DNA of 64,000 nucleotides from Octopus vulgaris (Eukaryota). Location: the NCBI GenBank assembly GCA_951406725.2, contig OX597820.1:112902001-112966000 (forward strand). The letters run 5' to 3'. The notes below the pieces were generated by a model. That model was not told the DNA's origin and did not search any database. It saw nothing but the letters and a program-made list of their open reading frames with translations. This document shows, piece after piece, positions 15,530 through 47,203 of this stretch; the stretch's first letter is position 1; each line of letters begins with the position of its first letter. The position numbers and the translations under genes are program-made.

Positions 15530-15576
<47 letters not shown>

Positions 15577-15578
15577 TT

Positions 15579-15616
<38 letters not shown>

Positions 15617-15658
15617 CAGACAAACAGATAGACAGACAGACAAACAGACAGACAGATT

Positions 15659-15689
<31 letters not shown>

Positions 15690-15738
15690 GGATAGACAGA
15701 CAAACAGATAGACAGACAGACAAACAGACAGACAGATT

Positions 15739-15769
<31 letters not shown>

Positions 15770-15890
15770 GGATAGACAGACAAACAGATAGACAGACAGA
15801 CAAACAGACAGACAGATTGAAAGATAGATAGATAGATAGATGGATAGACAGACAAACAGATAGACAGACAGACAAACAGACAGACAGATT

Positions 15891-15921
<31 letters not shown>

Positions 15922-15935
15922 GGATAGACAGACAA

Positions 15936-15968
<33 letters not shown>

Positions 15969-15970
15969 TT

Positions 15971-16001
<31 letters not shown>

Positions 16002-16050
16002 GGATAGACAGACAAACAGATAGACAGACAGACAAACAGACAGACAGATT

Positions 16051-16081
<31 letters not shown>

Positions 16082-16126
16082 GGATAGACAGACAAACAGA
16101 CAGACAGACAAACAGACAGACAGATT

Positions 16127-16157
<31 letters not shown>

Positions 16158-16206
16158 GGATAGACAGACAAACAGATAGACAGACAGACAAACAGACAGA
16201 CAGATT

Positions 16207-16237
<31 letters not shown>

Positions 16238-16286
16238 GGATAGACAGACAAACAGATAGACAGACAGACAAACAGACAGACAGATT

Positions 16287-16320
<34 letters not shown>

Positions 16321-16445
16321 CAGACAGACAAACAGATAGACAGACAGACAAACAGACAGACAGATTGAAAGATAGATAGATAGATAAATAGATAGATAGA
16401 TAGATGGATAGACAGACAGACAGACAGATAGACAGACAGATAGAT
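15530..16445. repeat. (GATA)/(GACA) array organised into ~80-bp higher-order units
   Basis: Marker GATTGAAA recurs 11 times at 72-80 bp spacing (15575 to 16363). Confidence 0.95.
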
Positions 16446-16737
16446 GGTGCACGAAACTCTCAGCTCTTGAGTCACTTTTGTTACTCCCAGATATATACGA
16501 GCTATACCTTAGATGCACATATCAGTTCATATATATACATTCAAACATGCTATAATATATGTGTGCGTTTGTATGTGTATGCATATATTTATATATATAC
16601 TTGCACATGTATATATATGAATATATGCATGCACACACACACACACATATATATATAAATGCATATTTTATATATGTACATACACATATGTATGTGTATG
16701 AATATATACATATATATATCTATAAATGTCTGTTTGT

Positions 16738-21820: not shown

Positions 21821-22216
21821 CTAGCAGTATCGCCCGGCGTTGCTCGGGTTTGTAAGGGAAATAACTATATAAGCATTTTTAGAGAGTTATAGCCAAAAAA
21901 GGACAATAAAATGCATTAAAAATGGAAAAAAAATGATGGTAAATTTTTTTTAAATCGTTGACTCATCGTAGACATTTTTAGAGAGTTACTTCCCTTATAT
22001 AATAGCGAAAAAATGCATTAAAATGGAAAAAAATGGTGGTAAAATTTGTTTAAATCGTAGACTCATCGTAGACGCGCGCTAATACCCAGAAGGGCTCGAT
22101 ATGAATCACGACTATAAGATACCCGCTTTTGGTTACACTGCACCGTAAAATGTGGGAGTAGTTAGGAATCTAAATCGTAGGAGACAGACACACAACTTAA
22201 CTTTTATATATAAAGA
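21821..22216 (-). mobile_element. Non-autonomous Helitron-type element
   Basis: Minus strand starts TCTTTATATATAAAA and ends with hairpin CCCGAGCAACGCCGGG then CTAG; ~100-bp internal duplication; inserted in AT. Confidence 0.8.
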
Positions 22217-32959: not shown

Positions 32960-33480
32960 AAAAGTTTAAGAAGTACCACTTCCTTCTGCAGCAGAATCAT
33001 CTGGATCTTCTCTTCTTAAAGAAGAAGCAGCAGACATTGAAAATTTTGCATTATTTTCTTTTTAAATAAATTACGCAGAGTATTTTGTCATTGGCTATTT
33101 TTCTGGACAGTCTAAAAGTGTTGTGTTACTTGATTAGAAAAATAATTCACACTTGACTTCCCATTCTCTGATCTAGATTGAATCATTCTTACAATGTCTG
33201 TGAGCTGATGCCAGATATATTCTCTTGGTATATTCTCTTCTTCCTCAGCATTCAGTTGTTGCAGCATCTTTCCAATAAAGTTCCTTCAGCTTTGTTGATG
33301 GACAGTTTCTCATATGCTTCTCAATCAAGTTATTTATATCCTCTTCAATTGTCTGAACAGAATTTCTTCAAATATAGGCTCTGCCTCAAGTCTAATATTT
33401 CAAAGACAATGCCATAGTGTTCATCAAGAAAAGTTCAATTAGAAAATCTCTTCTTGTCGAGTCATCAAAAGAAGTTACTT
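32960..33480 (-). mobile_element. Possible decayed pogo/Tigger transposase C-terminus
   Basis: Minus translation IEEDINNLIEKH..KLKEL resembles Tigger C-terminal helices; heavily frameshifted. Confidence 0.35.
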
Positions 33481-33554: not shown

Positions 33555-33859
33555 TATATTTCTTTATTGCCCACAAGGGGCTAAACATAGAGGGGACAAA
33601 CAAGGACAGACAAAGAGATCAAGTCAATTACATCGACCCCAGTGCAAAATTGGTACCTTATTTATCGACCCTGAAAGGATGAAAGGCGGAATTTGAACTC
33701 AGAACTCAATTGCCTGAACAGAATTTCTTCAAATATAGGCTCTGCCTCAAGTTTAATATTTCAAAGACAATGCCATAGTATTCATCAAGAAAAGTTCAAT
33801 TAGAAAATCTCTTCTTGTCAAGAACTCAGAACGTAACGACAGACGAAATACCGCTAAGC
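33555..33859 (-). mobile_element. SINE (family 2) containing a 114-bp templated insertion
   Basis: 19-bp TSD ATTACTYGATAGGGTTATG (33536-33554 and 33860-33878). Confidence 0.85.
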
Positions 33860-34450: not shown

Positions 34451-34574
34451 GAACAACAATATATATTTGAATTTGAGCTGAACTCATTTCCAGTGATCTG
34501 GGATTCAAACATCACAACCATTAAATGCACTACCACTGTATATCACAAATGCACCAAATCATAAAATGTGGATA

Positions 34575-34740
34575 CATCAACAAACACATGAGCATACATT
34601 CAATATATACTACATAAAGATCATTCAACATATATTACACATGCATACATTTAACATTTACTACATGAGCATACATTCAACATATACTACATGGGAATTA
34701 TCCAACACATACTAAATGTTCATACATTCAACAAATACTA
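34575..34740. repeat. ~26-bp minisatellite (CATACATTCAACATATACTACATGAG)
   Basis: About 6 degenerate copies. Confidence 0.65.
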
Positions 34741-34741
34741 T

Positions 34742-34950
34742 TCTTTTACCTGTTTCAGTCATTTGACTGTGGCTATGCTGGAGCACTGCCTTGAAGGAGT
34801 TTAGTTGAAGAAATCAACCCTAAGATTTATTCTTTGTAAGCCTAGTACTTATTCTATCAGTCTCCTTTGCCAAAGCGCTAAGTTACATGGACATAAACTC
34901 ACCAGCATTGTTTGTCAAATGATGGCAGGGGGACAAACACAGATACACAC
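34742..34950 (-). mobile_element. SINE (family 1) 3' half
   Basis: TTCTTTTACCTGTTTCAGTCATTTGACTG..GCTGGAGCAC on plus. Confidence 0.75.
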
Positions 34951-35006
34951 ACACATGCATAAACATATACATATCTATCTTTCTATCTATCTATCTATCT
35001 ATCTAC

Positions 35007-35122
<116 letters not shown>

Positions 35123-35845
35123 TTATATATATAAAACTGGGAATGTGTGTCTATCTGTCTGTGTGTTTCCCTAAAACTTGAGAACTACACAACCAATTTC
35201 ATTCAAATTTTACACATGCCTTACTTAGGGTCCGGGGAGTGTCATTGGCAAAAAAAAATGTTCAACTTCTTGCCTAGAGCGAGCCCATAGCAATATCATA
35301 TCTTCTCCACTACTTCAGTATTATGTGTTAAAAGTGAAACAAAAACATTTCTCTATTTTATGTCAGATACTTTCACTTTAACAATAAAAATAATAATAAC
35401 AATTGAATTATATGTAGTAAGTAATAATTAAAATCAAACTAAAGTATAATATTATCGTAACATAACAAAAGTAAAAATATAGCAATTGGTATAAAATTGC
35501 ATCAATGACTTGAACTTGAATCAGTGGTTTCACATGAATGGGAATAAATAAAATATAAAATTTAAGTGCAGAAATGGAATAGTCCAGATGGAGGTGTGCA
35601 CGGCTTTTACATTAGATTATTTGCTAATTAGCTAGCATTAAGCATTCTACTGAGTACCGCTTCTGTTAATTGCGTTATTTTTCTGTTTGCGTTGTGAGAA
35701 AATTGCTGCCTCCATTTAAGAGAGTCGAAGTTGTGAATTTATTGTTTATACCAACTGCTTTGAACAGTGCCCGTTGTGAAACGGTGATTTTCGCCCTACG
35801 GGGCAGAAAATTTTGTATTATTTGAAATTTGCTACCTTTGAGGTG

Positions 35846-37267
35846 ATGGAGTTCGACTTAACGTCGAAGGACGATTTTCCCGTGATGGGAAAAGGTGAAA
35901 CCATGGAAAACCCAGTAACCAAACAGTCATTCTCGGCCGCGGTGGGCGGCGCTATGATAGAGGTCGAATTCAAGATCGAACAGCTGTATGAATACAGGAA
36001 TCTTGTAAAGGTGGAAGGAGGAGAGATAAGGCTGGTACCGCCGCAAGCGAAAGTGCAAGAAATCAAGGAAAGGATTGTAACTTATAAAGTGTATAGCTTT
36101 AAGGAAAAAAGATTATGGACGCGAAAAACGAAATTGTTGAGAAGTGCCTGTCCCCGGTGTGGGACAGAATTCGTCACATCGCGAGAGGCGCACGTAGTGC
36201 TACGGTAGAGGTGCACTTCGACACGGCAGAAGTGGCGAAGGAGGTGTCGTCGTTAACCTTAAAAAGCGACGACATCATGTTGTTACCCTCGTATATGGGG
36301 AAACGAACTGCAAAGTTAGTGGTAGATGACATACCCAGAGGGTACGACATCATGTGGGTGGCAGCGGCGGTACTACACAACATGGAGCGGGAAATTTCAA
36401 TTCTGCAAATGAGAAGGAAGGAAGTGGTACGCTGGAAGGGTCAGACCTTGGAACTCCTCGTACAGGCAGAGAACAAGATCTTGGAGAGCCTGCCTGACAG
36501 AATTTTTAATGAGGACGGCACGTCCATGAGAGTGTCGGTGGAGGGACGTAGACCCAGATGCTTCAAGTGTGGAGAGAAGGGTCACGTCCGGTCCAACTGC
36601 ATTAAGAAAAAAGAACAGAAGAAACGCCTCCTCAAAGTGTACCTGTCACTGAAGGGGAGGAAACAAGCAAGAACAACCAAATGAAGAAGACAAGTACGGA
36701 AACGAAAACGGATTCAAAAGAACCAATGGACTACACACAAGTCACACACAAAAGAAAAAAGAGAACACCCAGGACTCCCCTCCCCAAACAAGGAAAAAAA
36801 CAACAAACACAGCAGACACACACATTAAACAAATCCCCCAACCCTACCCCCATGGCACTGTTTTCATTGGAAAACAGTTTGCCAAACCCCTCCCCATAAA
36901 ACAAGACATCAAAAAGTGCATATCGAAAAACGAAAGAATTATAGCCTTTGATGAAAAAAATGAAAAAGTTTACAAATGCTGCAAACTCGCGAGATTTCCA
37001 CTGTATAGTAGAACCTCAGATGGGAAGGCGACCGCTCGTTTCGCGAAGGTAGGGGAGAACGAGTGGAAGGAGGAGGTTCTTCAGGAACACCTGAGGAACC
37101 GTCTTATTAGAGATGTAACCAAGGAGGTAATGGAGGGTAAACTGGCAATAACCCCGGCAACCACACCCACCCAGAGCCCAGTGGCAACGCCGGTCAAGAA
37201 CCCTGCAGCAACGGAAGAAAGGGAAGCAGGCAGATTGAAACTGTCATGCTCCCTCTCGCAACCGTGA
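35846..37267 (+). pseudogene. ORF1 of copy 1 (three frameshifts in A7 runs)
   Basis: Fragments match the copy-2 ORF1, including CFKCGEKGHVRSNC. Confidence 0.85.
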
Positions 37268-37295
37268 GTATATACATTTCCTTCTCTCACCCACA

Positions 37296-40200
37296 ATGGC
37301 TAAGCTGGGCTGTATAAATGTACGTGGAATGGGGTCGAAACGGAAACAAATTTGTTTCCTGAACGACCTCACGACACACAGTGTAGATATTGCTATTGCA
37401 ACCGAGTCCAAGATGAGCGAGACCCAAGCGTTCTCGCCTCTTCTAAATGGTTTCGAGAAATTTATTTCTCCTAGCCGAGGAAGAGGCAGAGGCGTGGCAG
37501 TCTTCATCAGGAAGAGCTTGGACTTGCAGGTAAGTACTGTCTTTCTGGACCCAGAAGGCAGGCTGGTTGTCCTGGATGTGACTCACGTAAGTAAACAGTC
37601 CTTCAGGTTGGTAGCTGTCTACGCCCCGAACGAGGGTAGACAGACGGGTTTTTTCCGGAACCTGGAGCCCTTTTTAGCGACGTCGAAAACAGTAATCCTA
37701 GTAGGGGACTTTAACACTGTCCTTGAAGCGCACATCGACAGTGTTGGCTCAACCAATAGGAAGGGGAACCCTAGCCTCAAGGGTCTACTAGAGAGCTTTG
37801 ATCTAGTGGACCGTTACCGACTGGATGAGCCGAGCGTTCCACAGTGGACGTGGAGTAACAACGACGGCTCACACAGATCGTATCTAGATAGGATATTTAT
37901 TAAGAAAAGAGATAAGGATACGTTTAGTTGTCCACAATTTCATATTGTACCTTACTCGGATCACAAATTTGTGACGTGTGAGGTGCAATTAGACAAGTGT
38001 CATAGACAGGGACCCGGGTACTGGAAGCTGAACAAGGCTATTTTGAATTGTGAAGACTTCCGTACCCGGATTAAGGTGTTAGTTCAGAGGGCATTGTGTG
38101 GCACCATCATTAACAATAGATGGTGGCACGCCCTCAAAAGAGCCATTCGTTTAGAGTCCGTCAGATTTAGCAATCAGCTAAGGATAGATAGGGCTAGTCT
38201 AGAGGGCGATTTAGTCAAGAATCTAGACGAGGCAATGGAAGCTGGCTCTGCATCCGGAGTGTTGGCGGCAAGGACGGTATTGTACCGTCACCTTAACTCC
38301 AAGTACGAAGGTTGCAGAGTCAGAGCTAAGCTGCGTGCTGGGAAACGAGAAGGTATTAACGTGGCCGGATGGGCCCGTCGTGTGGAGAGTAAGAGAGGCA
38401 ATAGAGCCTCAATTAAATCTTTGACTGACGAACAGGGACAAAAGATCTATGGACAGGAGGAGATGCAAAAGTTTCTTCACCAGCATTTCGCTCGCGTGTT
38501 CGGGGGTGGTGGTTCGCTGGATCGGGGGAGGGCCTTAAAGGACTTCCTGGCCGGCGGACCGCGGCTCGCGGGGCGTGAAGTGGAGTGCTGTGAGGGAGCG
38601 ATCACTCCCGCGGAGATAAAGGAGATACTGGCCGGATGCGCCGGGGAGAAGTCGCCGGGGTTGGATGGTCTGCCCTATGAGTTTTACCAAAGTATGCCGG
38701 ACTTGTTCGGGGGAATACTGGCAGGCGTCTACACGAACTGGCAGCAGAATGGGAGAATCCCCAGTTCTGTAAGCCGGGGAGTGGTGACGCTAATCCAGAA
38801 AGACCCGAGCAAGGGGGATAATATTAGTAACTACAGGCCCATAACTCTACTTAATGTAGAGTTAAAGATTCTGGCCAAGGTGTTAGCAAAAAGGTTGACG
38901 GTTGTCGTGGAGAAACTTGTAGGGAGAGCACAGACATGTGCAATTCCAGGCAGGTCGATCCAGGACAATCTTCACCTTATACGCTACACCTTAGATAGGG
39001 TGGGTAAATTAGCCGGCAAAGGTGGGGTAATGGTCCATTTAGACCAAAGTAAAGCCTTCGATAGGGTAGACCATGGGTACCTGGCGACGGTCCTCGAAGC
39101 GACTGGGCTGGGCCCTGAATTTCGCGGGTGGATCTCCGCTATGTATAGCGGCATCAAGTCCACCGTCCAGATAAACGGTTACCTAACGGAACCGTTTTCG
39201 ATCAAGTGTTCAGTGCGTCAGGGGTGCCCCTTGTCACCACTTTTGTACGTATTGGCTCTTGAGCCACTGCTGCGAAAGTTGGAGAGGCTGGGGAGTAACT
39301 CGGATGAAATCGGAGGTGGGAGGACGGTGACTGCTTACGCGGATGACGTCACCCTCATCGTGTCCAAAGAGGCCCAACTACCTTGTGTGGAGGAGGTTAT
39401 CAGAGGATACGAGGCGGTGGCAGGAGCAAAGGTTAACAAGGACAAATCGGTTGGCTTGCGCCTCGGCACCTGGAGGAGCAAGCCGATATCGTCCAGTGTC
39501 GTGGGACACTGGACGGATGGCCCTGTTAAGTTGCTGGGAGTTTGGTTTGGACCAGACTCCCAAACGGAGAAGAACTGGAGCGAGGTGACGAGCAGGGTGG
39601 AGGCCATAGTACGGACCTGGTCCGGAAGGTCTCTGTCCCTGAAAGGAAGGGCGGAGGTGGTGCAGATGTTTATTGCATCTGTAATCACCTACCGCCTGAC
39701 CGTTGTCCCTTGCCCCGATTCATGGCTTAACAAGTTGGAACGAATCCTTTTCCGCTTTTTGTGGAAAGGAGGAAAGCCACTTGTGAGACGATCCGTTTGC
39801 TGCCAAGAACCGTTAAAGGGCGGGTTAGGGATGCCTTGGTTGATGATGCGCAGACATGCGTTGAGGCTAAGGCACCTCTGGCACCACCTGGAGGGTGATA
39901 AGGTGTGGAGTCCGCTGGCAGAGGGATTTTTCCCGAGACCGGCCTCCTTAGTTAATTTTAAACCCGGTTACATCAAAAGATGGAAACTGACTCCATGGCA
40001 AAAAGAGTGCCGACAGGCACTCACGCTGATCCACAAGACGGGTAAGGCCGGCTGCGGAAATACCACCTCGGTATTTTATAGAGGGCTGGTGGAGGTAAAA
40101 AATGACGACGTCCTAGGAGGGGCTCTGGGGTTTGATGAAGACCAGCTCGCCAACCTGTTTAAAAAAACTTTCAGGTCGGGGTATTTGGATAATTTCCAAA

Positions 40201-40583
40201 GATCCCTGGCCTGGCAGTGCTACAGGAATGCTTTACCTGTTCGCGAGAAGTTATCGCGGCACGGAGTTCAAGTGCCACCGACGTGTCCAAGGTGCGGGTT
40301 GGACGATGAAACCGTCCAGCACGCCTTTGTTCACTGTCGGAAGTTGTCCGACTTGATAAGTTACGCAGAACACGTGTTGTCCCATCTGGGACGAGTACAG
40401 CTGTCGGCTGAGTCTATGATTAAGATGATACCGCCAACTGGACTCTCGAAGGAAGGTGAGGCATGTTTCCACTGCACGGTGGCAGTGGTAAAGGAATGCA
40501 TGTGGAGAACGAGAATGGAAGGAGCCGCGATAGGGTCCTTCATCTCCGACCCGGCTTGCTCACTTACTTCAGATATCATCTGA
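37296..40583 (+). CDS. ORF2 of copy 1: APE endonuclease, reverse transcriptase, zinc finger (C-terminal frameshift)
   Basis: NVRG, GDFN, SDH, PGLDGL, DQSKAFDRV, QGCPLSP, YADD, CPRC..HAFVHC; 1-bp deletion near 40547. Confidence 0.9.
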   Translation: MAKLGCINVRGMGSKRKQICFLNDLTTHSVDIAIATESKMSETQAFSPLLNGFEKFISPSRGRGRGVAVFIRKSLDLQVSTVFLDPEGRLVVLDVTHVSKQSFRLVAVYAPNEGRQTGFFRNLEPFLATSKTVILVGDFNTVLEAHIDSVGSTNRKGNPSLKGLLESFDLVDRYRLDEPSVPQWTWSNNDGSHRSYLDRIFIKKRDKDTFSCPQFHIVPYSDHKFVTCEVQLDKCHRQGPGYWKLNKAILNCEDFRTRIKVLVQRALCGTIINNRWWHALKRAIRLESVRFSNQLRIDRASLEGDLVKNLDEAMEAGSASGVLAARTVLYRHLNSKYEGCRVRAKLRAGKREGINVAGWARRVESKRGNRASIKSLTDEQGQKIYGQEEMQKFLHQHFARVFGGGGSLDRGRALKDFLAGGPRLAGREVECCEGAITPAEIKEILAGCAGEKSPGLDGLPYEFYQSMPDLFGGILAGVYTNWQQNGRIPSSVSRGVVTLIQKDPSKGDNISNYRPITLLNVELKILAKVLAKRLTVVVEKLVGRAQTCAIPGRSIQDNLHLIRYTLDRVGKLAGKGGVMVHLDQSKAFDRVDHGYLATVLEATGLGPEFRGWISAMYSGIKSTVQINGYLTEPFSIKCSVRQGCPLSPLLYVLALEPLLRKLERLGSNSDEIGGGRTVTAYADDVTLIVSKEAQLPCVEEVIRGYEAVAGAKVNKDKSVGLRLGTWRSKPISSSVVGHWTDGPVKLLGVWFGPDSQTEKNWSEVTSRVEAIVRTWSGRSLSLKGRAEVVQMFIASVITYRLTVVPCPDSWLNKLERILFRFLWKGGKPLVRRSVCCQEPLKGGLGMPWLMMRRHALRLRHLWHHLEGDKVWSPLAEGFFPRPASLVNFKPGYIKRWKLTPWQKECRQALTLIHKTGKAGCGNTTSVFYRGLVEVKNDDVLGGALGFDEDQLANLFKKTFRSGYLDNFQRSLAWQCYRNALPVREKLSRHGVQVPPTCPRCGLDDETVQHAFVHCRKLSDLISYAEHVLSHLGRVQLSAESMIKMIPPTGLSKEGEACFHCTVAVVKECMWRTRMEGAAIGSFISDPACSLTSDII

Positions 40584-41118
40584 AGAGCAAAATGGGGCTG
40601 GAGAAGAGGACCCTGCCGCGGGGTGTGTACGAGAAAAGATGGAAGGAAGTAGAAAGAAAGGTGGGTGTGAGAAACCCAGCTTGATCATGGAGGAGAGAGA
40701 GGAAGTGGAAGCTGCAGGGCCTCACAAATTGCCGGGGTGTAAAAACGCCAGTGAGACGACAAGGTTACCTACTGTTGTTTGCTATACTAGTTAAGCAAAG
40801 GTTAATATTTTTATAACGAATTTAAACAATTTTTAAACGATTCTCTTAAATGTTTTTGTATGTATGTCCTGTATTTGTAATTCTGTGTACCGATTTTTAT
40901 AATCGTAATAAAGAAATATCTACTGAGTACCGCTTCTGTTAATTGCGTTATTTTTCTGTTTGCGTTGTGAGAAAATTGCTGCCTCCATTTAAGAGAGTCG
41001 AAGTTGTGAATTTATTGTTTATACCAACTGCTTTGAACAGTGCCCGTTGTGAAACGGTGATTTTCGCCCTACGGGGCAGAAAATTTTGTATTATTTGAAA
41101 TTTGCTACCTTTGAGGTG

Positions 41119-42543
41119 ATGGAGTTCGACTTAACGTCGAAGGACGATTTTCCCGTGATGGGAAAAGGTGAAACCATGGAAAACCCAGTAACCAAACAGT
41201 CATTCTCGGCCGCGGTGGGCGGCGCTATGATAGAGGTCGAATTCAAGATCGAACAGCTGTATGAATACAGGAATCTTGTAAAGGTGGAAGGAGGAGAGAT
41301 AAGGCTGGTACCGCCGCAAGCGAAAGTGCAAGAAATCAAGGAAAGGATTGTAACTTATAAAGTGTATAGCTTTAAGGAAAAAAAGATTATGGACGCGAAA
41401 AACGAAATTGTTGAGAAGTGCCTGTCCCCGGTGTGGGACAGAATTCGTCACATCGCGAGAGGCGCACGTAGTGCTACGGTAGAGGTGCACTTCGACACGG
41501 CAGAAGTGGCGAAGGAGGTGTCGTCGTTAACCTTAAAAAGCGACGACATCATGTTGTTACCCTCGTATATGGGGAAACGAACTGCAAAGTTAGTGGTAGA
41601 TGACATACCCAGAGGGTACGACATCATGTGGGTGGCAGCGGCGGTACTACACAACATGGAGCGGGAAATTTCAATTCTGCAAATGAGAAGGAAGGAAGTG
41701 GTACGCTGGAAGGGTCAGACCTTGGAACTCCTCGTACAGGCAGAGAACAAGATCTTGGAGAGCCTGCCTGACAGAATTTTTAATGAGGACGGCACGTCCA
41801 TGAGAGTGTCGGTGGAGGGACGTAGACCCAGATGCTTCAAGTGTGGAGAGAAGGGTCACGTCCGGTCCAACTGCATTAAGAAAAAAAGAACAGAAGAAAC
41901 GCCTCCTCAAAGTGTACCTGTCACTGAAGGGGAGGAAACAAGCAAGAACAACCAAATGAAGAAGACAAGTACGGAAACGAAAACGGATTCAAAAGAACCA
42001 ATGGACTACACACAAGTCACACACAAAAGAAAAAAAGAGAACACCCAGGACTCCCCTCCCCAAACAAGGAAAAAAACAACAAACACAGCAGACACACACA
42101 TTAAACAAATCCCCCAACCCTACCCCCATGGCACTGTTTTCATTGGAAAACAGTTTGCCAAACCCCTCCCCATAAAACAAGACATCAAAAAGTGCATATC
42201 GAAAAACGAAAGAATTATAGCCTTTGATGAAAAAAATGAAAAAGTTTACAAATGCTGCAAACTCGCGAGATTTCCACTGTATAGTAGAACCTCAGATGGG
42301 AAGGCGACCGCTCGTTTCGCGAAGGTAGGGGAGAACGAGTGGAAGGAGGAGGTTCTTCAGGAACACCTGAGGAACCGTCTTATTAGAGATGTAACCAAGG
42401 AGGTAATGGAGGGTAAACTGGCAATAACCCCGGCAACCACACCCACCCAGAGCCCAGTGGCAACGCCGGTCAAGAACCCTGCAGCAACGGAAGAAAGGGA
42501 AGCAGGCAGATTGAAACTGTCATGCTCCCTCTCGCAACCGTGA
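41119..42543 (+). CDS. ORF1 gag-like nucleic-acid-binding protein with CCHC knuckle
   Basis: Open frame from 41086 (first ATG at 41119); SFSAAV N-terminal motif; CX2CX4HX4C. Confidence 0.9.
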   Translation: MEFDLTSKDDFPVMGKGETMENPVTKQSFSAAVGGAMIEVEFKIEQLYEYRNLVKVEGGEIRLVPPQAKVQEIKERIVTYKVYSFKEKKIMDAKNEIVEKCLSPVWDRIRHIARGARSATVEVHFDTAEVAKEVSSLTLKSDDIMLLPSYMGKRTAKLVVDDIPRGYDIMWVAAAVLHNMEREISILQMRRKEVVRWKGQTLELLVQAENKILESLPDRIFNEDGTSMRVSVEGRRPRCFKCGEKGHVRSNCIKKKRTEETPPQSVPVTEGEETSKNNQMKKTSTETKTDSKEPMDYTQVTHKRKKENTQDSPPQTRKKTTNTADTHIKQIPQPYPHGTVFIGKQFAKPLPIKQDIKKCISKNERIIAFDEKNEKVYKCCKLARFPLYSRTSDGKATARFAKVGENEWKEEVLQEHLRNRLIRDVTKEVMEGKLAITPATTPTQSPVATPVKNPAATEEREAGRLKLSCSLSQP

Positions 42544-42571
42544 GTATATACATTTCCTTCTCTCACCCACA

Positions 42572-45500
42572 ATGGCTAAGCTGGGCTGTATAAATGTACG
42601 TGGAATGGGGTCGAAACGGAAACAAATTTGTTTCCTGAACGACCTCACGACACACAGTGTAGATATTGCTATTGCAACCGAGTCCAAGATGAGCGAGACC
42701 CAAGCGTTCTCGCCTCTTCTAAATGGTTTCGAGAAATTTATTTCTCCTAGCCGAGGAAGAGGCAGAGGCGTGGCAGTCTTCATCAGGAAGAGCTTGGACT
42801 TGCAGGTAAGTACTGTCTTTCTGGACCCAGAAGGCAGGCTGGTTGTCCTGGATGTGACTCACGTAAGTAAACAGTCCTTCAGGTTGGTAGCTGTCTACGC
42901 CCCGAACGAGGGTAGACAGACGGGTTTTTTCCGGAACCTGGAGCCCTTTTTAGCGACGTCGAAAACAGTAATCCTAGTAGGGGACTTTAACACTGTCCTT
43001 GAAGCGCACATCGACAGTGTTGGCTCAACCAATAGGAAGGGGAACCCTAGCCTCAAGGGTCTACTAGAGAGCTTTGATCTAGTGGACCGTTACCGACTGG
43101 ATGAGCCGAGCGTTCCACAGTGGACGTGGAGTAACAACGACGGCTCACACAGATCGTATCTAGATAGGATATTTATTAAGAAAAGAGATAAGGATACGTT
43201 TAGTTGTCCACAATTTCATATTGTACCTTACTCGGATCACAAATTTGTGACGTGTGAGGTGCAATTAGACAAGTGTCATAGACAGGGACCCGGGTACTGG
43301 AAGCTGAACAAGGCTATTTTGAATTGTGAAGACTTCCGTACCCGGATTAAGGTGTTAGTTCAGAGGGCATTGTGTGGCACCATCATTAACAATAGATGGT
43401 GGCACGCCCTCAAAAGAGCCATTCGTTTAGAGTCCGTCAGATTTAGCAATCAGCTAAGGATAGATAGGGCTAGTCTAGAGGGCGATTTAGTCAAGAATCT
43501 AGACGAGGCAATGGAAGCTGGCTCTGCATCCGGAGTGTTGGCGGCAAGGACGGTATTGTACCGTCACCTTAACTCCAAGTACGAAGGTTGCAGAGTCAGA
43601 GCTAAGCTGCGTGCTGGGAAACGAGAAGGTATTAACGTGGCCGGATGGGCCCGTCGTGTGGAGAGTAAGAGAGGCAATAGAGCCTCAATTAAATCTTTGA
43701 CTGACGAACAGGGACAAAAGATCTATGGACAGGAGGAGATGCAAAAGTTTCTTCACCAGCATTTCGCTCGCGTGTTCGGGGGTGGTGGTTCGCTGGATCG
43801 GGGGAGGGCCTTAAAGGACTTCCTGGCCGGCGGACCGCGGCTCGCGGGGCGTGAAGTGGAGTGCTGTGAGGGAGCGATCACTCCCGCGGAGATAAAGGAG
43901 ATACTGGCCGGATGCGCCGGGGAGAAGTCGCCGGGGTTGGATGGTCTGCCCTATGAGTTTTACCAAAGTATGCCGGACTTGTTCGGGGGAATACTGGCAG
44001 GCGTCTACACGAACTGGCAGCAGAATGGGAGAATCCCCAGTTCTGTAAGCCGGGGAGTGGTGACGCTAATCCAGAAAGACCCGAGCAAGGGGGATAATAT
44101 TAGTAACTACAGGCCCATAACTCTACTTAATGTAGAGTTAAAGATTCTGGCCAAGGTGTTAGCAAAAAGGTTGACGGTTGTCGTGGAGAAACTTGTAGGG
44201 AGAGCACAGACATGTGCAATTCCAGGCAGGTCGATCCAGGACAATCTTCACCTTATACGCTACACCTTAGATAGGGTGGGTAAATTAGCCGGCAAAGGTG
44301 GGGTAATGGTCCATTTAGACCAAAGTAAAGCCTTCGATAGGGTAGACCATGGGTACCTGGCGACGGTCCTCGAAGCGACTGGGCTGGGCCCTGAATTTCG
44401 CGGGTGGATCTCCGCTATGTATAGCGGCATCAAGTCCACCGTCCAGATAAACGGTTACCTAACGGAACCGTTTTCGATCAAGTGTTCAGTGCGTCAGGGG
44501 TGCCCCTTGTCACCACTTTTGTACGTATTGGCTCTTGAGCCACTGCTGCGAAAGTTGGAGAGGCTGGGGAGTAACTCGGATGAAATCGGAGGTGGGAGGA
44601 CGGTGACTGCTTACGCGGATGACGTCACCCTCATCGTGTCCAAAGAGGCCCAACTACCTTGTGTGGAGGAGGTTATCAGAGGATACGAGGCGGTGGCAGG
44701 AGCAAAGGTTAACAAGGACAAATCGGTTGGCTTGCGCCTCGGCACCTGGAGGAGCAAGCCGATATCGTCCAGTGTCGTGGGACACTGGACGGATGGCCCT
44801 GTTAAGTTGCTGGGAGTTTGGTTTGGACCAGACTCCCAAACGGAGAAGAACTGGAGCGAGGTGACGAGCAGGGTGGAGGCCATAGTACGGACCTGGTCCG
44901 GAAGGTCTCTGTCCCTGAAAGGAAGGGCGGAGGTGGTGCAGATGTTTATTGCATCTGTAATCACCTACCGCCTGACCGTTGTCCCTTGCCCCGATTCATG
45001 GCTTAACAAGTTGGAACGAATCCTTTTCCGCTTTTTGTGGAAAGGAGGAAAGCCACTTGTGAGACGATCCGTTTGCTGCCAAGAACCGTTAAAGGGCGGG
45101 TTAGGGATGCCTTGGTTGATGATGCGCAGACATGCGTTGAGGCTAAGGCACCTCTGGCACCACCTGGAGGGTGATAAGGTGTGGAGTCCGCTGGCAGAGG
45201 GATTTTTCCCGAGACCGGCCTCCTTAGTTAATTTTAAACCCGGTTACATCAAAAGATGGAAACTGACTCCATGGCAAAAAGAGTGCCGACAGGCACTCAC
45301 GCTGATCCACAAGACGGGTAAGGCCGGCTGCGGAAATACCACCTCGGTATTTTATAGAGGGCTGGTGGAGGTAAAAAATGACGACGTCCTAGGAGGGGCT
45401 CTGGGGTTTGATGAAGACCAGCTCGCCAACCTGTTTAAAAAAACTTTCAGGTCGGGGTATTTGGATAATTTCCAAAGATCCCTGGCCTGGCAGTGCTACA

Positions 45501-45961
45501 GGAATGCTTTACCTGTTCGCGAGAAGTTATCGCGGCACGGAGTTCAAGTGCCACCGACGTGTCCAAGGTGCGGGTTGGACGATGAAACCGTCCAGCACGC
45601 CTTTGTTCACTGTCGGAAGTTGTCCGACTTGATAAGTTACGCAGAACACGTGTTGTCCCATCTGGGACGAGTACAGCTGTCGGCTGAGTCTATGATTAAG
45701 ATGATACCGCCAACTGGACTCTCGAAGGAAGGTGAGGCATGTTTCCACTGCACGGTGGCAGTGGTAAAGGAATGCATGTGGAGAACGAGAATGGAAGGAG
45801 CCGCGATAGGGTCCTTCATCTCCGGACCCGGCTTGCTCACTTACTTCAGATATCATCTGAAGAGCAAAATGGGGCTGGAGAAGAGGACCCTGCCGCGGGG
45901 TGTGTACGAGAAAAGATGGAAGGAAGTAGAAAGAAAGGTGGGTGTGAGAAACCCAGCTTGA
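42572..45961 (+). CDS. ORF2 (1129 aa): APE endonuclease, reverse transcriptase, C-terminal zinc finger
   Basis: All catalytic motifs intact (GDFN, YLDRIF, SDH, WKLN, DQSKAFD, QGCPLSP, YADD, KGGLG, CPRC-HAFVHC). Confidence 0.97.
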   Translation: MAKLGCINVRGMGSKRKQICFLNDLTTHSVDIAIATESKMSETQAFSPLLNGFEKFISPSRGRGRGVAVFIRKSLDLQVSTVFLDPEGRLVVLDVTHVSKQSFRLVAVYAPNEGRQTGFFRNLEPFLATSKTVILVGDFNTVLEAHIDSVGSTNRKGNPSLKGLLESFDLVDRYRLDEPSVPQWTWSNNDGSHRSYLDRIFIKKRDKDTFSCPQFHIVPYSDHKFVTCEVQLDKCHRQGPGYWKLNKAILNCEDFRTRIKVLVQRALCGTIINNRWWHALKRAIRLESVRFSNQLRIDRASLEGDLVKNLDEAMEAGSASGVLAARTVLYRHLNSKYEGCRVRAKLRAGKREGINVAGWARRVESKRGNRASIKSLTDEQGQKIYGQEEMQKFLHQHFARVFGGGGSLDRGRALKDFLAGGPRLAGREVECCEGAITPAEIKEILAGCAGEKSPGLDGLPYEFYQSMPDLFGGILAGVYTNWQQNGRIPSSVSRGVVTLIQKDPSKGDNISNYRPITLLNVELKILAKVLAKRLTVVVEKLVGRAQTCAIPGRSIQDNLHLIRYTLDRVGKLAGKGGVMVHLDQSKAFDRVDHGYLATVLEATGLGPEFRGWISAMYSGIKSTVQINGYLTEPFSIKCSVRQGCPLSPLLYVLALEPLLRKLERLGSNSDEIGGGRTVTAYADDVTLIVSKEAQLPCVEEVIRGYEAVAGAKVNKDKSVGLRLGTWRSKPISSSVVGHWTDGPVKLLGVWFGPDSQTEKNWSEVTSRVEAIVRTWSGRSLSLKGRAEVVQMFIASVITYRLTVVPCPDSWLNKLERILFRFLWKGGKPLVRRSVCCQEPLKGGLGMPWLMMRRHALRLRHLWHHLEGDKVWSPLAEGFFPRPASLVNFKPGYIKRWKLTPWQKECRQALTLIHKTGKAGCGNTTSVFYRGLVEVKNDDVLGGALGFDEDQLANLFKKTFRSGYLDNFQRSLAWQCYRNALPVREKLSRHGVQVPPTCPRCGLDDETVQHAFVHCRKLSDLISYAEHVLSHLGRVQLSAESMIKMIPPTGLSKEGEACFHCTVAVVKECMWRTRMEGAAIGSFISGPGLLTYFRYHLKSKMGLEKRTLPRGVYEKRWKEVERKVGVRNPA

Positions 45962-46246
45962 TCATGGAGGAGAGAGAGGAAGTGGAAGCTGCAGGGCCTC
46001 ACAAATTGCCGGGGTGTAAAAACGCCAGTGAGACGACAAGGTTACCTACTGTTGTTTGCTATACTAGTTAAGCAAAGGTTAATATTTTTATAACGAATTT
46101 AAACAATTTTTAAACGATTCTCTTAAATGTTTTTGTATGTATGTCCTGTATTTGTAATTCTGTGTACCGATTTTTATAATCGTAATAAAGAAATATCTAC
46201 TGAGTACTGCTCTTAGTTTATTTCTGATCCATAAAGGCCTATAGCT

Positions 46247-46630
46247 TCAACAGAGTACTGCTTTTTGGTTTACCGTAAGGTTTGTTGTTATTATTATTTC
46301 TGTTTAACTATTGTTATCACGTTTGTTGGTTCCTCATAAGGGAAGCGTTGTTGTGTTGCATTTGTTAAATAATTGTAAACCATAACCCTCCCCCTTTGGG
46401 AGAAGAAGCTTTGGTTATTGTTTAAAAATTGAATTGTGTCCCTGTTTGGGGAAATTGACAATATTTTCACCGTTTACACGGAAATATTTTCGTTAAAATG
46501 TCTTCGATAGAAGAAAGTCCAAAAATGAATTTCACTGCAGCTGTCGGATTGTAGCCACACTTCTATACAAGAGGGAGGACAAGATACAATTGATCGAAAT
46601 TACAAGAGACGGGCTAACAATTCCAGTCTG
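46247..46630 (+). mobile_element. 5' relic (UTR and ORF1 start) of a related Tx1-like element
   Basis: Starts TCAACAGAGTACTGCT (cf. TCTACTGAGTACCGCT); T-rich leader; ATG ~46498 gives MSSIEESPKMNFTAAVG versus ORF1 MENPVTKQSFSAAVG. Confidence 0.5.
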
Positions 46631-46820
46631 TTATATATTTTCAGCATTGTTATCTATAGCGATATCAAGATATAACTTTGTATTTTGTATTTTATGTGTA
46701 GATGTATATATATAGATGTACATGTAATATGTACACATATATATACACATATATACATGCACTAGCACTATGACCTGGCAACGACGGGTCTTTAATGCTA
46801 GTATATATATATATACACAC

Positions 46821-46867
<47 letters not shown>

Positions 46868-46869
<2 letters not shown>

Positions 46870-47014
46870 GATAAGAAAAGAAATGGAGCAACAATTAAGA
46901 ACTAGAAGTTGATCACTGGTATTAAAAGGTCATAGTTTAATTAAACTATGACCTTTTAATACCAGTGATCAACTTGTAATTGTTAATTGTTGCACCATTT
47001 CTTTTTCTTATCTG
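46868..47014. repeat. Spacerless palindrome with ~73-bp arms
   Basis: 35-bp perfect arms (46906-46975) centred at 46940/46941, extending with a few mismatches. Confidence 0.95.
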
Positions 47015-47152
47015 AATATATTAAACCACAGTTTACCATTTAAATTACCAACTACTATTAACCTTACAGCAAGGCCTATACATAGTGAGGCAATACACCA
47101 GCAGTGCCTGCGGATACATTTATCCCTTAGACGGTTGCATAACCTCTAACTC

Positions 47153-47199
<47 letters not shown>

Positions 47200-47203
<4 letters not shown>

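What the first reader, a model, noticed from the sequence alone, without database searches (positions are those of the whole stretch)
35646..46265. Young Tx1-like LINE in head-to-tail tandem whose 5' junction recreates its own target
Seen: two 5.27-kb copies joined without spacer, with TCTACTGAGTAC at 35646, 40919 and 46196. The element start (…GAGTACCGCTT) mimics the flank it interrupted (…GAGTACTGCTC), and a fourth variant (TCAACAGAGTACTGCT, 46247) heads a related relic. Copy 2 has intact ORFs, abundant CpG and no poly(A). Known: many Tx1-group L1s are sequence-specific (snRNA, tRNA arrays, microsatellites, other transposons). I do not recognise this target as U1/U2/U5/U6, 5S or tRNA. Inference: the family may target a motif TCWACWGAGTACYGCT found at the start of its own kind, regenerating it with each insertion and building arrays. 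This would be a self-targeting strategy and a possible new site-specific APE integrator.
Basis: partly seen in the sequence, partly recalled or inferred. Interest (0 to 1): 0.8.

Follow-up and report, generated by a model that had tools for sequence, protein, structure and literature searches.

The report
Octopus LINEs stacked on one site
Two near-identical full-length Tx1-type jumping genes and the remains of older relatives sit nose to tail inside a Helitron-like element, each preceded by the same or a similar 12-letter word, most likely because this family prefers that site and re-creates it with each insertion, a known way for such elements to pile up, though aiming at its own relatives' front ends is not excluded.

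Summary
Two 5.27-kb L1-Tx1 copies (ORF1 with zinc knuckle; endonuclease-RT-zinc finger ORF2) differ by no substitutions and four one-base losses, probably long-read errors. TCTACTGAGTAC lies at 35646, 40919 and 46196, a variant at 46247. New here: the sequence after 46247 really is an internally deleted sister Tx1; a 39-bp head-like scrap lies between; and the whole stack sits in a non-autonomous Helitron-like unit (35120-46801). Short-read contigs suggest roughly 25 near-identical, mostly full-length copies per genome, and show a second tail-to-head junction with a different 11-base spacer followed by the same CGCT start. So the element most likely begins at CGCT, the 12-mer is a target-site duplication, and the 'mimicry' is the head of an older relative inserted earlier at the same site. 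Serial insertion into a TSD-regenerated target is described for R1 and for SINEU-3/Tx1-Mar. True self-targeting (the 12-mer belongs to the head) predicts the same local structure and stays open at about 25%. Other copies' flanks and the 40919 junction itself could not be read. A new, probably site-preferring member of a known kind.

The parts
35120..35645 (+). 5' part of a non-autonomous Helitron-like host unit: A|TC start inside an (AT)n tract, (CTGT)-like microsatellite, AT-rich interior
   Evidence: sequence, motif scan; same end structure at 22216-21821 on the minus strand; features as listed in PMC4344730
35646..35657 (+). 12-mer TCTACTGAGTAC, first copy (likely target-site duplication)
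35658..40918 (+). Tx1 copy 1; identical to copy 2 but for four one-base losses (near 36105, 36607, 36755, 40548), likely sequencing errors
40919..40930 (+). 12-mer at the tandem junction
40931..46195 (+). Tx1 copy 2, intact; starts CGCT, T-rich 5' UTR, no poly(A)
41119..42543 (+). ORF1, 474 aa, CCHC zinc knuckle; 50% identical to Octopus sinensis LOC115216432
42572..45961 (+). ORF2, 1129 aa: APE endonuclease, reverse transcriptase (YADD), C-terminal zinc finger
46184..46189 (+). AATAAA, 6 bases before the element end
46196..46207 (+). 12-mer, third copy
46208..46246 (+). 39-bp scrap that begins like a family head (TGCT + T-rich); possibly a collapsed older insertion
   Evidence: anchored start frequency 77 of 105574 positions; whole-piece alignment to the relic head weak, 31 of 876 background stretches as good
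46247..46258 (+). variant 12-mer TCAACAGAGTAC in front of the relic
46259..46758 (+). internally deleted sister-family Tx1: 5' UTR, ORF1 start (46498-46547), a later ORF1 block (46548-46613), 3' UTR-like tail (about 46606-46758)
46772..46801 (+). Helitron-like 3' end: hairpin 46772-46790, CTAG 46798-46801, followed by T of an (AT)n tract

Best explanation
This is a young L1-Tx1 retrotransposon that likely prefers one kind of site and has, with older relatives, likely hit the same site inside a Helitron-like element several times, each insertion probably duplicating the 12-mer so that the next copy lands just upstream of the last. Shown: the anatomy of the element, the order young copy, young copy, scrap, deleted sister element, a 12-mer before each, and the Helitron-like ends around the stack. 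Inferred: the endonuclease nicks the bottom strand at the left edge of the 12-mer, reverse transcription starts there, the second nick 12 bases on makes the duplication, and the upstream copy of the site stays intact for reuse; the element proper starts at CGCT, so what follows each 12-mer is simply the head of an earlier arrival (TGCT being a CpG-decayed CGCT). Inferred further: because AATAAA lies only 6 bases from the end, the transcript would be cut inside the downstream 12-mer, carry a few target bases that pair with the primer, and leave no genomic poly(A). The multicopy target may be this Helitron's interior; that is not shown. Copy 1 may be a second insertion, an unequal exchange or an assembly duplication (I put about 65% on its being real); the site-reuse argument does not depend on it.
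For: Relic is a true sister Tx1: DNA similarity to the element's first 290 bases without the motif, z 4.2 (global 0 of 500, local 1 of 500 shuffles as good; 0 of 351 window stretches), GAGTAC-to-Phe spacing 278 bases in both; its frame is the best non-element hit of an ORF1 profile among 2570 six-frame pieces, E 0.037; 52 contigs leave it at 46546 with letters reading PPEVEVG (my hand translation), matching PPEVKVA in an ORF1 relative. Independent junction in run X2, depth 89.9, about three single-copy depths: tail 46195, an 11-base spacer CCCTATTCACT, then CGCTACTGTT, then the element's UTR at 40961, i.e. tail-spacer-CGCT with another spacer. Variant 12-mer differs at 2 of 12, compatible with an old duplication. 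Helitron-like ends with an internal control in the same window. Precedent: tandem SINEU-3 'sandwiching a TSD' by sequential insertion into a Mariner, many Tx1 targeting other transposons (PMC4494074); R1 and other dimers by double insertion (PMC5932611).
Against: No 12-mer closes the stack after the relic's tail (best match 4 mismatches), as a pure TSD stack would predict unless it was deleted. The X2 spacer resembles the 12-mer (6 of the first 10 aligned letters, by hand), which fits a loose target consensus but equally a head that includes it. Flanks of the other copies were not seen (1175 loose ends and 62 joints hidden), so family-wide specificity is untested, and the X2 junction was listed only because both its sides lay on my reference. 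The 39-bp scrap is weakly supported as a separate insertion. The 40919 junction is not confirmed by reads.
Confidence: 0.5

Rival explanations
1. Self-targeting: the 12-mer is part of the family's own head; the endonuclease cuts at the first base of a relative's head, so every copy anywhere is a new landing pad. The head homology would help the 5' end join, and the T/G-rich head would complete the upstream copy's poly(A) signal.
For: Every tail read so far (46195, 40918, the X2 contig) is followed in register by a head or a head-like start; 24 of 38 aligned letters of the X2 insert match the element's first 42 bases, part of that inside the 12-mer (hand alignment). No closing 12-mer after the oldest member. 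Exact-match contig depth is flat from ORF1 to the 3' UTR (X1 1674, 1550, 1762; X2 521-879), so most copies are full length. The 40 bases after the 12-mer are 75% G+T.
Against: The X2 junction lacks the 12-mer and resumes at CGCT exactly where a TSD reading puts the start. The X2 junction is an ascertained case and is only about 3-4% of summed 3'-end depth (16% of exact-match depth). The TSD model gives the same local structure by a published mechanism.
Confidence: 0.25
2. One ordinary insertion with a 12-bp TSD, doubled by mis-assembly or by unequal exchange (possibly a longer array collapsed to two), that landed next to an abundant sister element without sequence preference.
For: Zero substitutions and only homopolymer-type differences between the copies; no read shown across 40919; flat depth also fits one array; sister-family sequence is very abundant (summed depth 1600 to 11000 single-copy units, which over-counts).
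Against: The family is so uniform that 155-255-base contigs at about 25-fold depth match with no difference, so identity does not mark an artefact. It leaves unexplained the variant 12-mer in front of a confirmed sister head 51 bases away, the head-like start after the third 12-mer (about 7 in 10000 positions) and the separate tail-to-head junction in X2.
Confidence: 0.15
3. The Helitron captured the sister-element fragment with its two motif copies long ago and spread it; the young Tx1 targets a fixed site of this Helitron family, as Tx1L does Tx1D, and the relic is cargo rather than an earlier insertion at this locus.
For: Helitron-like ends enclose everything; read depth is very high over the whole right flank 46250-46690; the relic has no TSD of its own and ends just before the Helitron hairpin; Helitrons capture sequence (PMC4344730).
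Against: Many contigs carry the undeleted ORF1 at 46546, so much of that depth comes from the sister LINE itself; depth over the left half of the unit was not measured; the X2 junction shows no Helitron sequence.
Confidence: 0.1

Closest known systems
Octopus L1-Tx1 families (O.sinensis_103_LINE in Martelossi et al. 2023, PMC10294476; 13 recently active L1-Tx1 families with 421 near-full-length insertions in O. vulgaris, PMC13282606)
   Same: RT near-identical by eye to O.sinensis_103_LINE, classed L1-Tx1 with 21 RT members; length 5.3 kb and about 25 copies fit the reported average (5436 bp, 32 per family)
   Different: No target or tandem analysis in the parts I read or searched; species of the window not established
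SINEU-3 and Tx1-Mar of crocodilians; Tx1L of Xenopus; Tx1-9_AMi (PMC4494074)
   Same: Tx1 machinery, preference for a site inside another transposon, tandem insertions sandwiching a TSD
   Different: Host here is Helitron-like rather than Mariner, piggyBac or Harbinger; autonomous full-length copies are stacked; family-wide specificity not shown here
R1 tandem dimers and arrays, 'double insertion' (PMC5932611)
   Same: element-TSD-element junctions from reuse of one site, open to expansion by unequal exchange
   Different: R1 clade, rDNA target, 33-base TSD
HeT-A/TART/TAHRE telomeric arrays (PMC5537684) and Zepp clusters (PMC3446292)
   Same: same-direction head-to-tail order; clusters of own kind
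   Different: interior site with a TSD and an intact endonuclease; Zepp copies are nested, not abutting heads; no 3' promoter shown here

Membership tests
L1-Tx1 non-LTR retrotransposon | two ORFs, ORF1 with zinc knuckle | tested here: met
   (zf-CCHC above cutoff)
L1-Tx1 non-LTR retrotransposon | ORF2 with APE endonuclease, RT and C-terminal zinc finger, catalytic residues present | tested here: met
   alignment to L1 endonuclease structures keeps N, E, Y, GDFN, D, SDH
L1-Tx1 non-LTR retrotransposon | RT groups with Tx1 references | tested here: inconclusive
   no tree built; RT near-identical by eye to a sequence that PMC10294476 classes as L1-Tx1
Target-specific Tx1 (criterion of PMC4494074) | more than 20% of a family's flanks share one target type | not testable with these tools
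   no genome held; read tables truncated
Target-specific Tx1 (criterion of PMC4494074) | target is an snRNA, tRNA, 5S gene or microsatellite | tested here: not met
   no Rfam match at or near gathering score in 34500-36200 or 45800-47200; hits are AT-repeat noise
Double-insertion tandem (R1, SINEU-3 type) | same TSD on the left, at the junction and on the right | tested here: met
Double-insertion tandem (R1, SINEU-3 type) | copies independent (differences or distinct 5' truncations), junction real in reads | tested here: inconclusive
   copies 1 and 2 identical but for likely errors; junction not displayed; relic is clearly independent
Non-autonomous Helitron (host unit) | 5' TC, 3' CTRR with upstream hairpin, inserted between A and T | tested here: met
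   35120 and 46772-46801, hairpin -3.6 kcal/mol; criteria from PMC4344730
Non-autonomous Helitron (host unit) | multicopy family sharing this interior; the two ends belong to one unit | not tested
HeT-A-like terminal arrays | added to chromosome ends without TSD | tested here: not met
   interior locus with flanks on both sides and a repeated 12-mer

The most novel reading that the evidence does not exclude
An octopus Tx1 lineage whose endonuclease aims at the first bases of its own lineage's heads, so that every copy founds a landing pad, the head homology secures full-length 5' joining, and the downstream head completes the upstream copy's poly(A) signal: a self-docking LINE that builds HeT-A-like arrays inside chromosomes, with abundant deleted relatives and a Helitron spreading the pads.
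Probability: 0.22. Interest if true: 0.78.

Novelty: new member of a known kind. Interest (0 to 1): 0.42.

Why it matters
Site-preferring non-LTR elements are sought as gene-insertion tools, and this one is intact, very young, apparently mostly full length, and lacks a recognised RNA-gene target; its endonuclease can be tested directly on a 12-base site. If the target is a Helitron, it adds a host type to Tx1's list; if it is the family's own head, it would be a targeting strategy I did not find described for Tx1 (ten full-text searches) and would explain how LINE arrays start away from telomeres. If neither, it is an ordinary double insertion.

Tried and rejected
Whole-genome junction census: no genome held. 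RNA-gene target: rejected. Metagenome relatives (80 loci, best segments 25-40% identity), viral (2) and prokaryote (0) collections gave no close relative, no motif match and no terminal repeat in 82 of 82 loci; one short contig (L071) had out-of-order ORF2 pieces on opposite strands, not followed up. Element-tail pattern: 0 hits in viral contigs. Motif in prokaryote genomes: 20 hits, taken as chance and not examined. Direct protein search with the relic frame found nothing. Unfiltered tblastn E-values for the relic (best 6e-6) are not evidence on their own: control stretches gave lower values through low complexity, so I rely on the profile test. Similarity of the relic's tail to the element's 3' UTR is marginal (66 against a shuffle maximum of 65, 0 of 300; AT-rich), and of the left flank not significant (15 of 300). 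Motif words were absent from 12 supplement files and from the part of file 24 held as text in PMC10294476; most of files 13-33 were not searched, and repeat libraries deposited outside the papers could not be seen, so a prior description of this family's target there is not excluded. Earlier-findings look-ups by place and sequence were empty.
Full report
Observation. The 12-mer TCTACTGAGTAC stands at 35646, 40919 and 46196, the variant TCAACAGAGTAC at 46247. The two units (5273 and 5277 bp) have no substitution and four one-base losses in copy 1: three of the six A7 runs and one GG. That pattern is typical of long-read error (my knowledge), so both copies may be intact; the read tables list no indel at those places, but one copy would fall below the 3% listing threshold. 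Copy 2 encodes a 474-aa ORF1 with a CCHC knuckle and a 1129-aa ORF2 with APE endonuclease, RT and zinc finger; the endonuclease keeps the catalytic residues of L1 structures. ORF1 is 50% identical to an Octopus sinensis protein, and the RT is near-identical by eye to O.sinensis_103_LINE, classed L1-Tx1 in the supplements of PMC10294476. The host is therefore an octopus; the species is not established. I built no tree.

Surroundings. The stack lies between an A|TC start at 35120 and a hairpin plus CTAG|T at 46772-46801, both in (AT)n tracts; a second, 400-bp unit with the same ends lies at 22216-21821. These are the terminal marks of non-autonomous Helitrons (passages of PMC4344730). That the two ends belong to one unit is inferred. 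No RNA family explains the site.

The relic. 46259-46548 resembles the element's first 290 bases even without the motif (z 4.2; global 0 of 500 and local 1 of 500 shuffles; 0 of 351 window stretches; with both anchor motifs left out z 3.0), and the distance from GAGTAC to the Phe of the F-x-A-A-V-G motif is 278 bases in both. An ORF1 profile built from 147 of 150 relatives (three zinc-knuckle-repeat proteins dropped) ranks the relic's frame first among non-element pieces of 2570 (E 0.037), at ORF1 residues about 172-192. In run X1, 52 contigs leave the reference at 46546 with letters that read PPEVEVG by hand, like the PPEVKVA that precedes this block in a relative. The relic is thus an internally deleted copy of an abundant sister Tx1 family. 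At least 16 near-fixed differences from read consensus lie in 444 bases (only 40 of 437 variant rows shown), mostly transitions. The 39 bases between the third 12-mer and the relic begin like a head (77 of 105574 background positions, a test defined after seeing the data), but match the relic head as a whole only weakly (31 of 876).

Reads. One laying was possible (4 of 24 listed runs; two gave almost no reads). Contigs that match the element without a difference have depths of 1550-1762 in X1 and 521-879 in X2; against medians of 65 and 27 for apparently single-copy contigs (11 and 14 values; higher, multi-copy rows and a few others left out) this gives about 24-27 and 19-32 copies, equal at both ends. 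The tool warns that depth is no copy number, so this is rough; it agrees with 421 near-full-length insertions in 13 active L1-Tx1 families reported for O. vulgaris (PMC13282606, parts 1-2 of 3 and a supplement search). One X2 contig (depth 89.9) joins the tail at 46195 through 39 other letters to 40961. They begin with an 11-base spacer CCCTATTCACT and then CGCTACTGTT, where the window has TCTACTGAGTAC and CGCTTCTGTT. This is an independent tail-to-head junction, probably of a sister subfamily. It was listed because both sides lay on the reference, so it gives no rate. The exact 40919 junction and the flanks of other copies were not displayed (62 joints, 1175 loose ends, 14906 pieces hidden).

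Mechanism. In target-primed reverse transcription the new element's tail is joined to the sequence downstream of the first nick and the bases between the nicks are duplicated (established; passages of PMC4494074, PMC1919474). If the 12-mer is that duplication, the left copy keeps its upstream flank and can be cut again, so newer elements collect on the left of older ones. The observed order (young, young, scrap, decayed sister) fits. The X2 junction, with another spacer and the same CGCT start, favours this boundary. Repeated hits on one 12-base site by two diverged families point to real site preference; tested Tx1L and TRAS1 endonucleases read about 10 bases around the nick (PMC1919474). The AATAAA 6 bases before the end suggests, by inference only, that transcripts end inside the downstream 12-mer and prime by pairing, which would explain the missing poly(A). 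Against this reading, no closing 12-mer follows the relic, and the X2 spacer is partly alike to the 12-mer. Self-targeting predicts the same local picture and needs no lost TSD; I give it about a quarter.

Comparison. It is an L1-Tx1 element by anatomy. It works like SINEU-3/Tx1-Mar (tandems sandwiching a TSD inside a DNA transposon; PMC4494074, passages and section 15) and R1 dimers (PMC5932611, passages). Membership of the target-specific class needs more than 20% of flanks to share a target and could not be tested. It is not a HeT-A-like terminal array (PMC5537684, passages) nor a Zepp-like nested cluster (PMC3446292, passages). PMC9115989 has no mention of Tx1 (term search); PMC3747384 was seen in passages. 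Ten full-text searches showed no account of targets for cephalopod Tx1 or of a Helitron or own-head target; most hits were seen as listings only, subscription papers and Repbase entries are outside the library, and unseen supplements and deposited libraries may bear on this.

Verdict. Real, and richer than first described: a probable site-preferring octopus Tx1 stacked with its relatives inside a Helitron-like element. The simplest mechanism is known; the self-docking reading stays open and one genome-wide junction census would settle it. Interest 0.42.

Noticed in passing
window 21821-22216 (minus strand): A complete 400-bp non-autonomous Helitron-like element (TC start, hairpin, CTAG end) with an internal direct repeat.
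   Followed up: partly
window 46761-46802: The Helitron-like 3' end is palindromic overall (ACTAGCA...TGCTAGT around the hairpin), so it reads as a 3' end on both strands.
   Followed up: no
window 46250-46690: Summed contig depth of the sister-family 5' region is some thousands of single-copy units, higher than over the related ORF2; thousands of Tx1 5' ends or a non-autonomous deleted derivative may exist in this genome.
   Followed up: partly
window 42645-45750: Many contigs at 88-95% identity lie on ORF2 (summed depth 40000-290000 in X1 against about 1600 for exact copies): several older subfamilies share this ORF2 but not the 5' UTR and ORF1.
   Followed up: no
window 15550-16450: Tandem array of about 80-base units built from TATC and TGTC microsatellite blocks.
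   Followed up: no
window 33356-33445 and 33717-33820: A local duplication of about 100 bases on either side of a SINE-like insertion (seen).
   Followed up: no
L071:4-186 and 583-1719: A metagenome contig with two Tx1-like ORF2 pieces on opposite strands.
   Followed up: no
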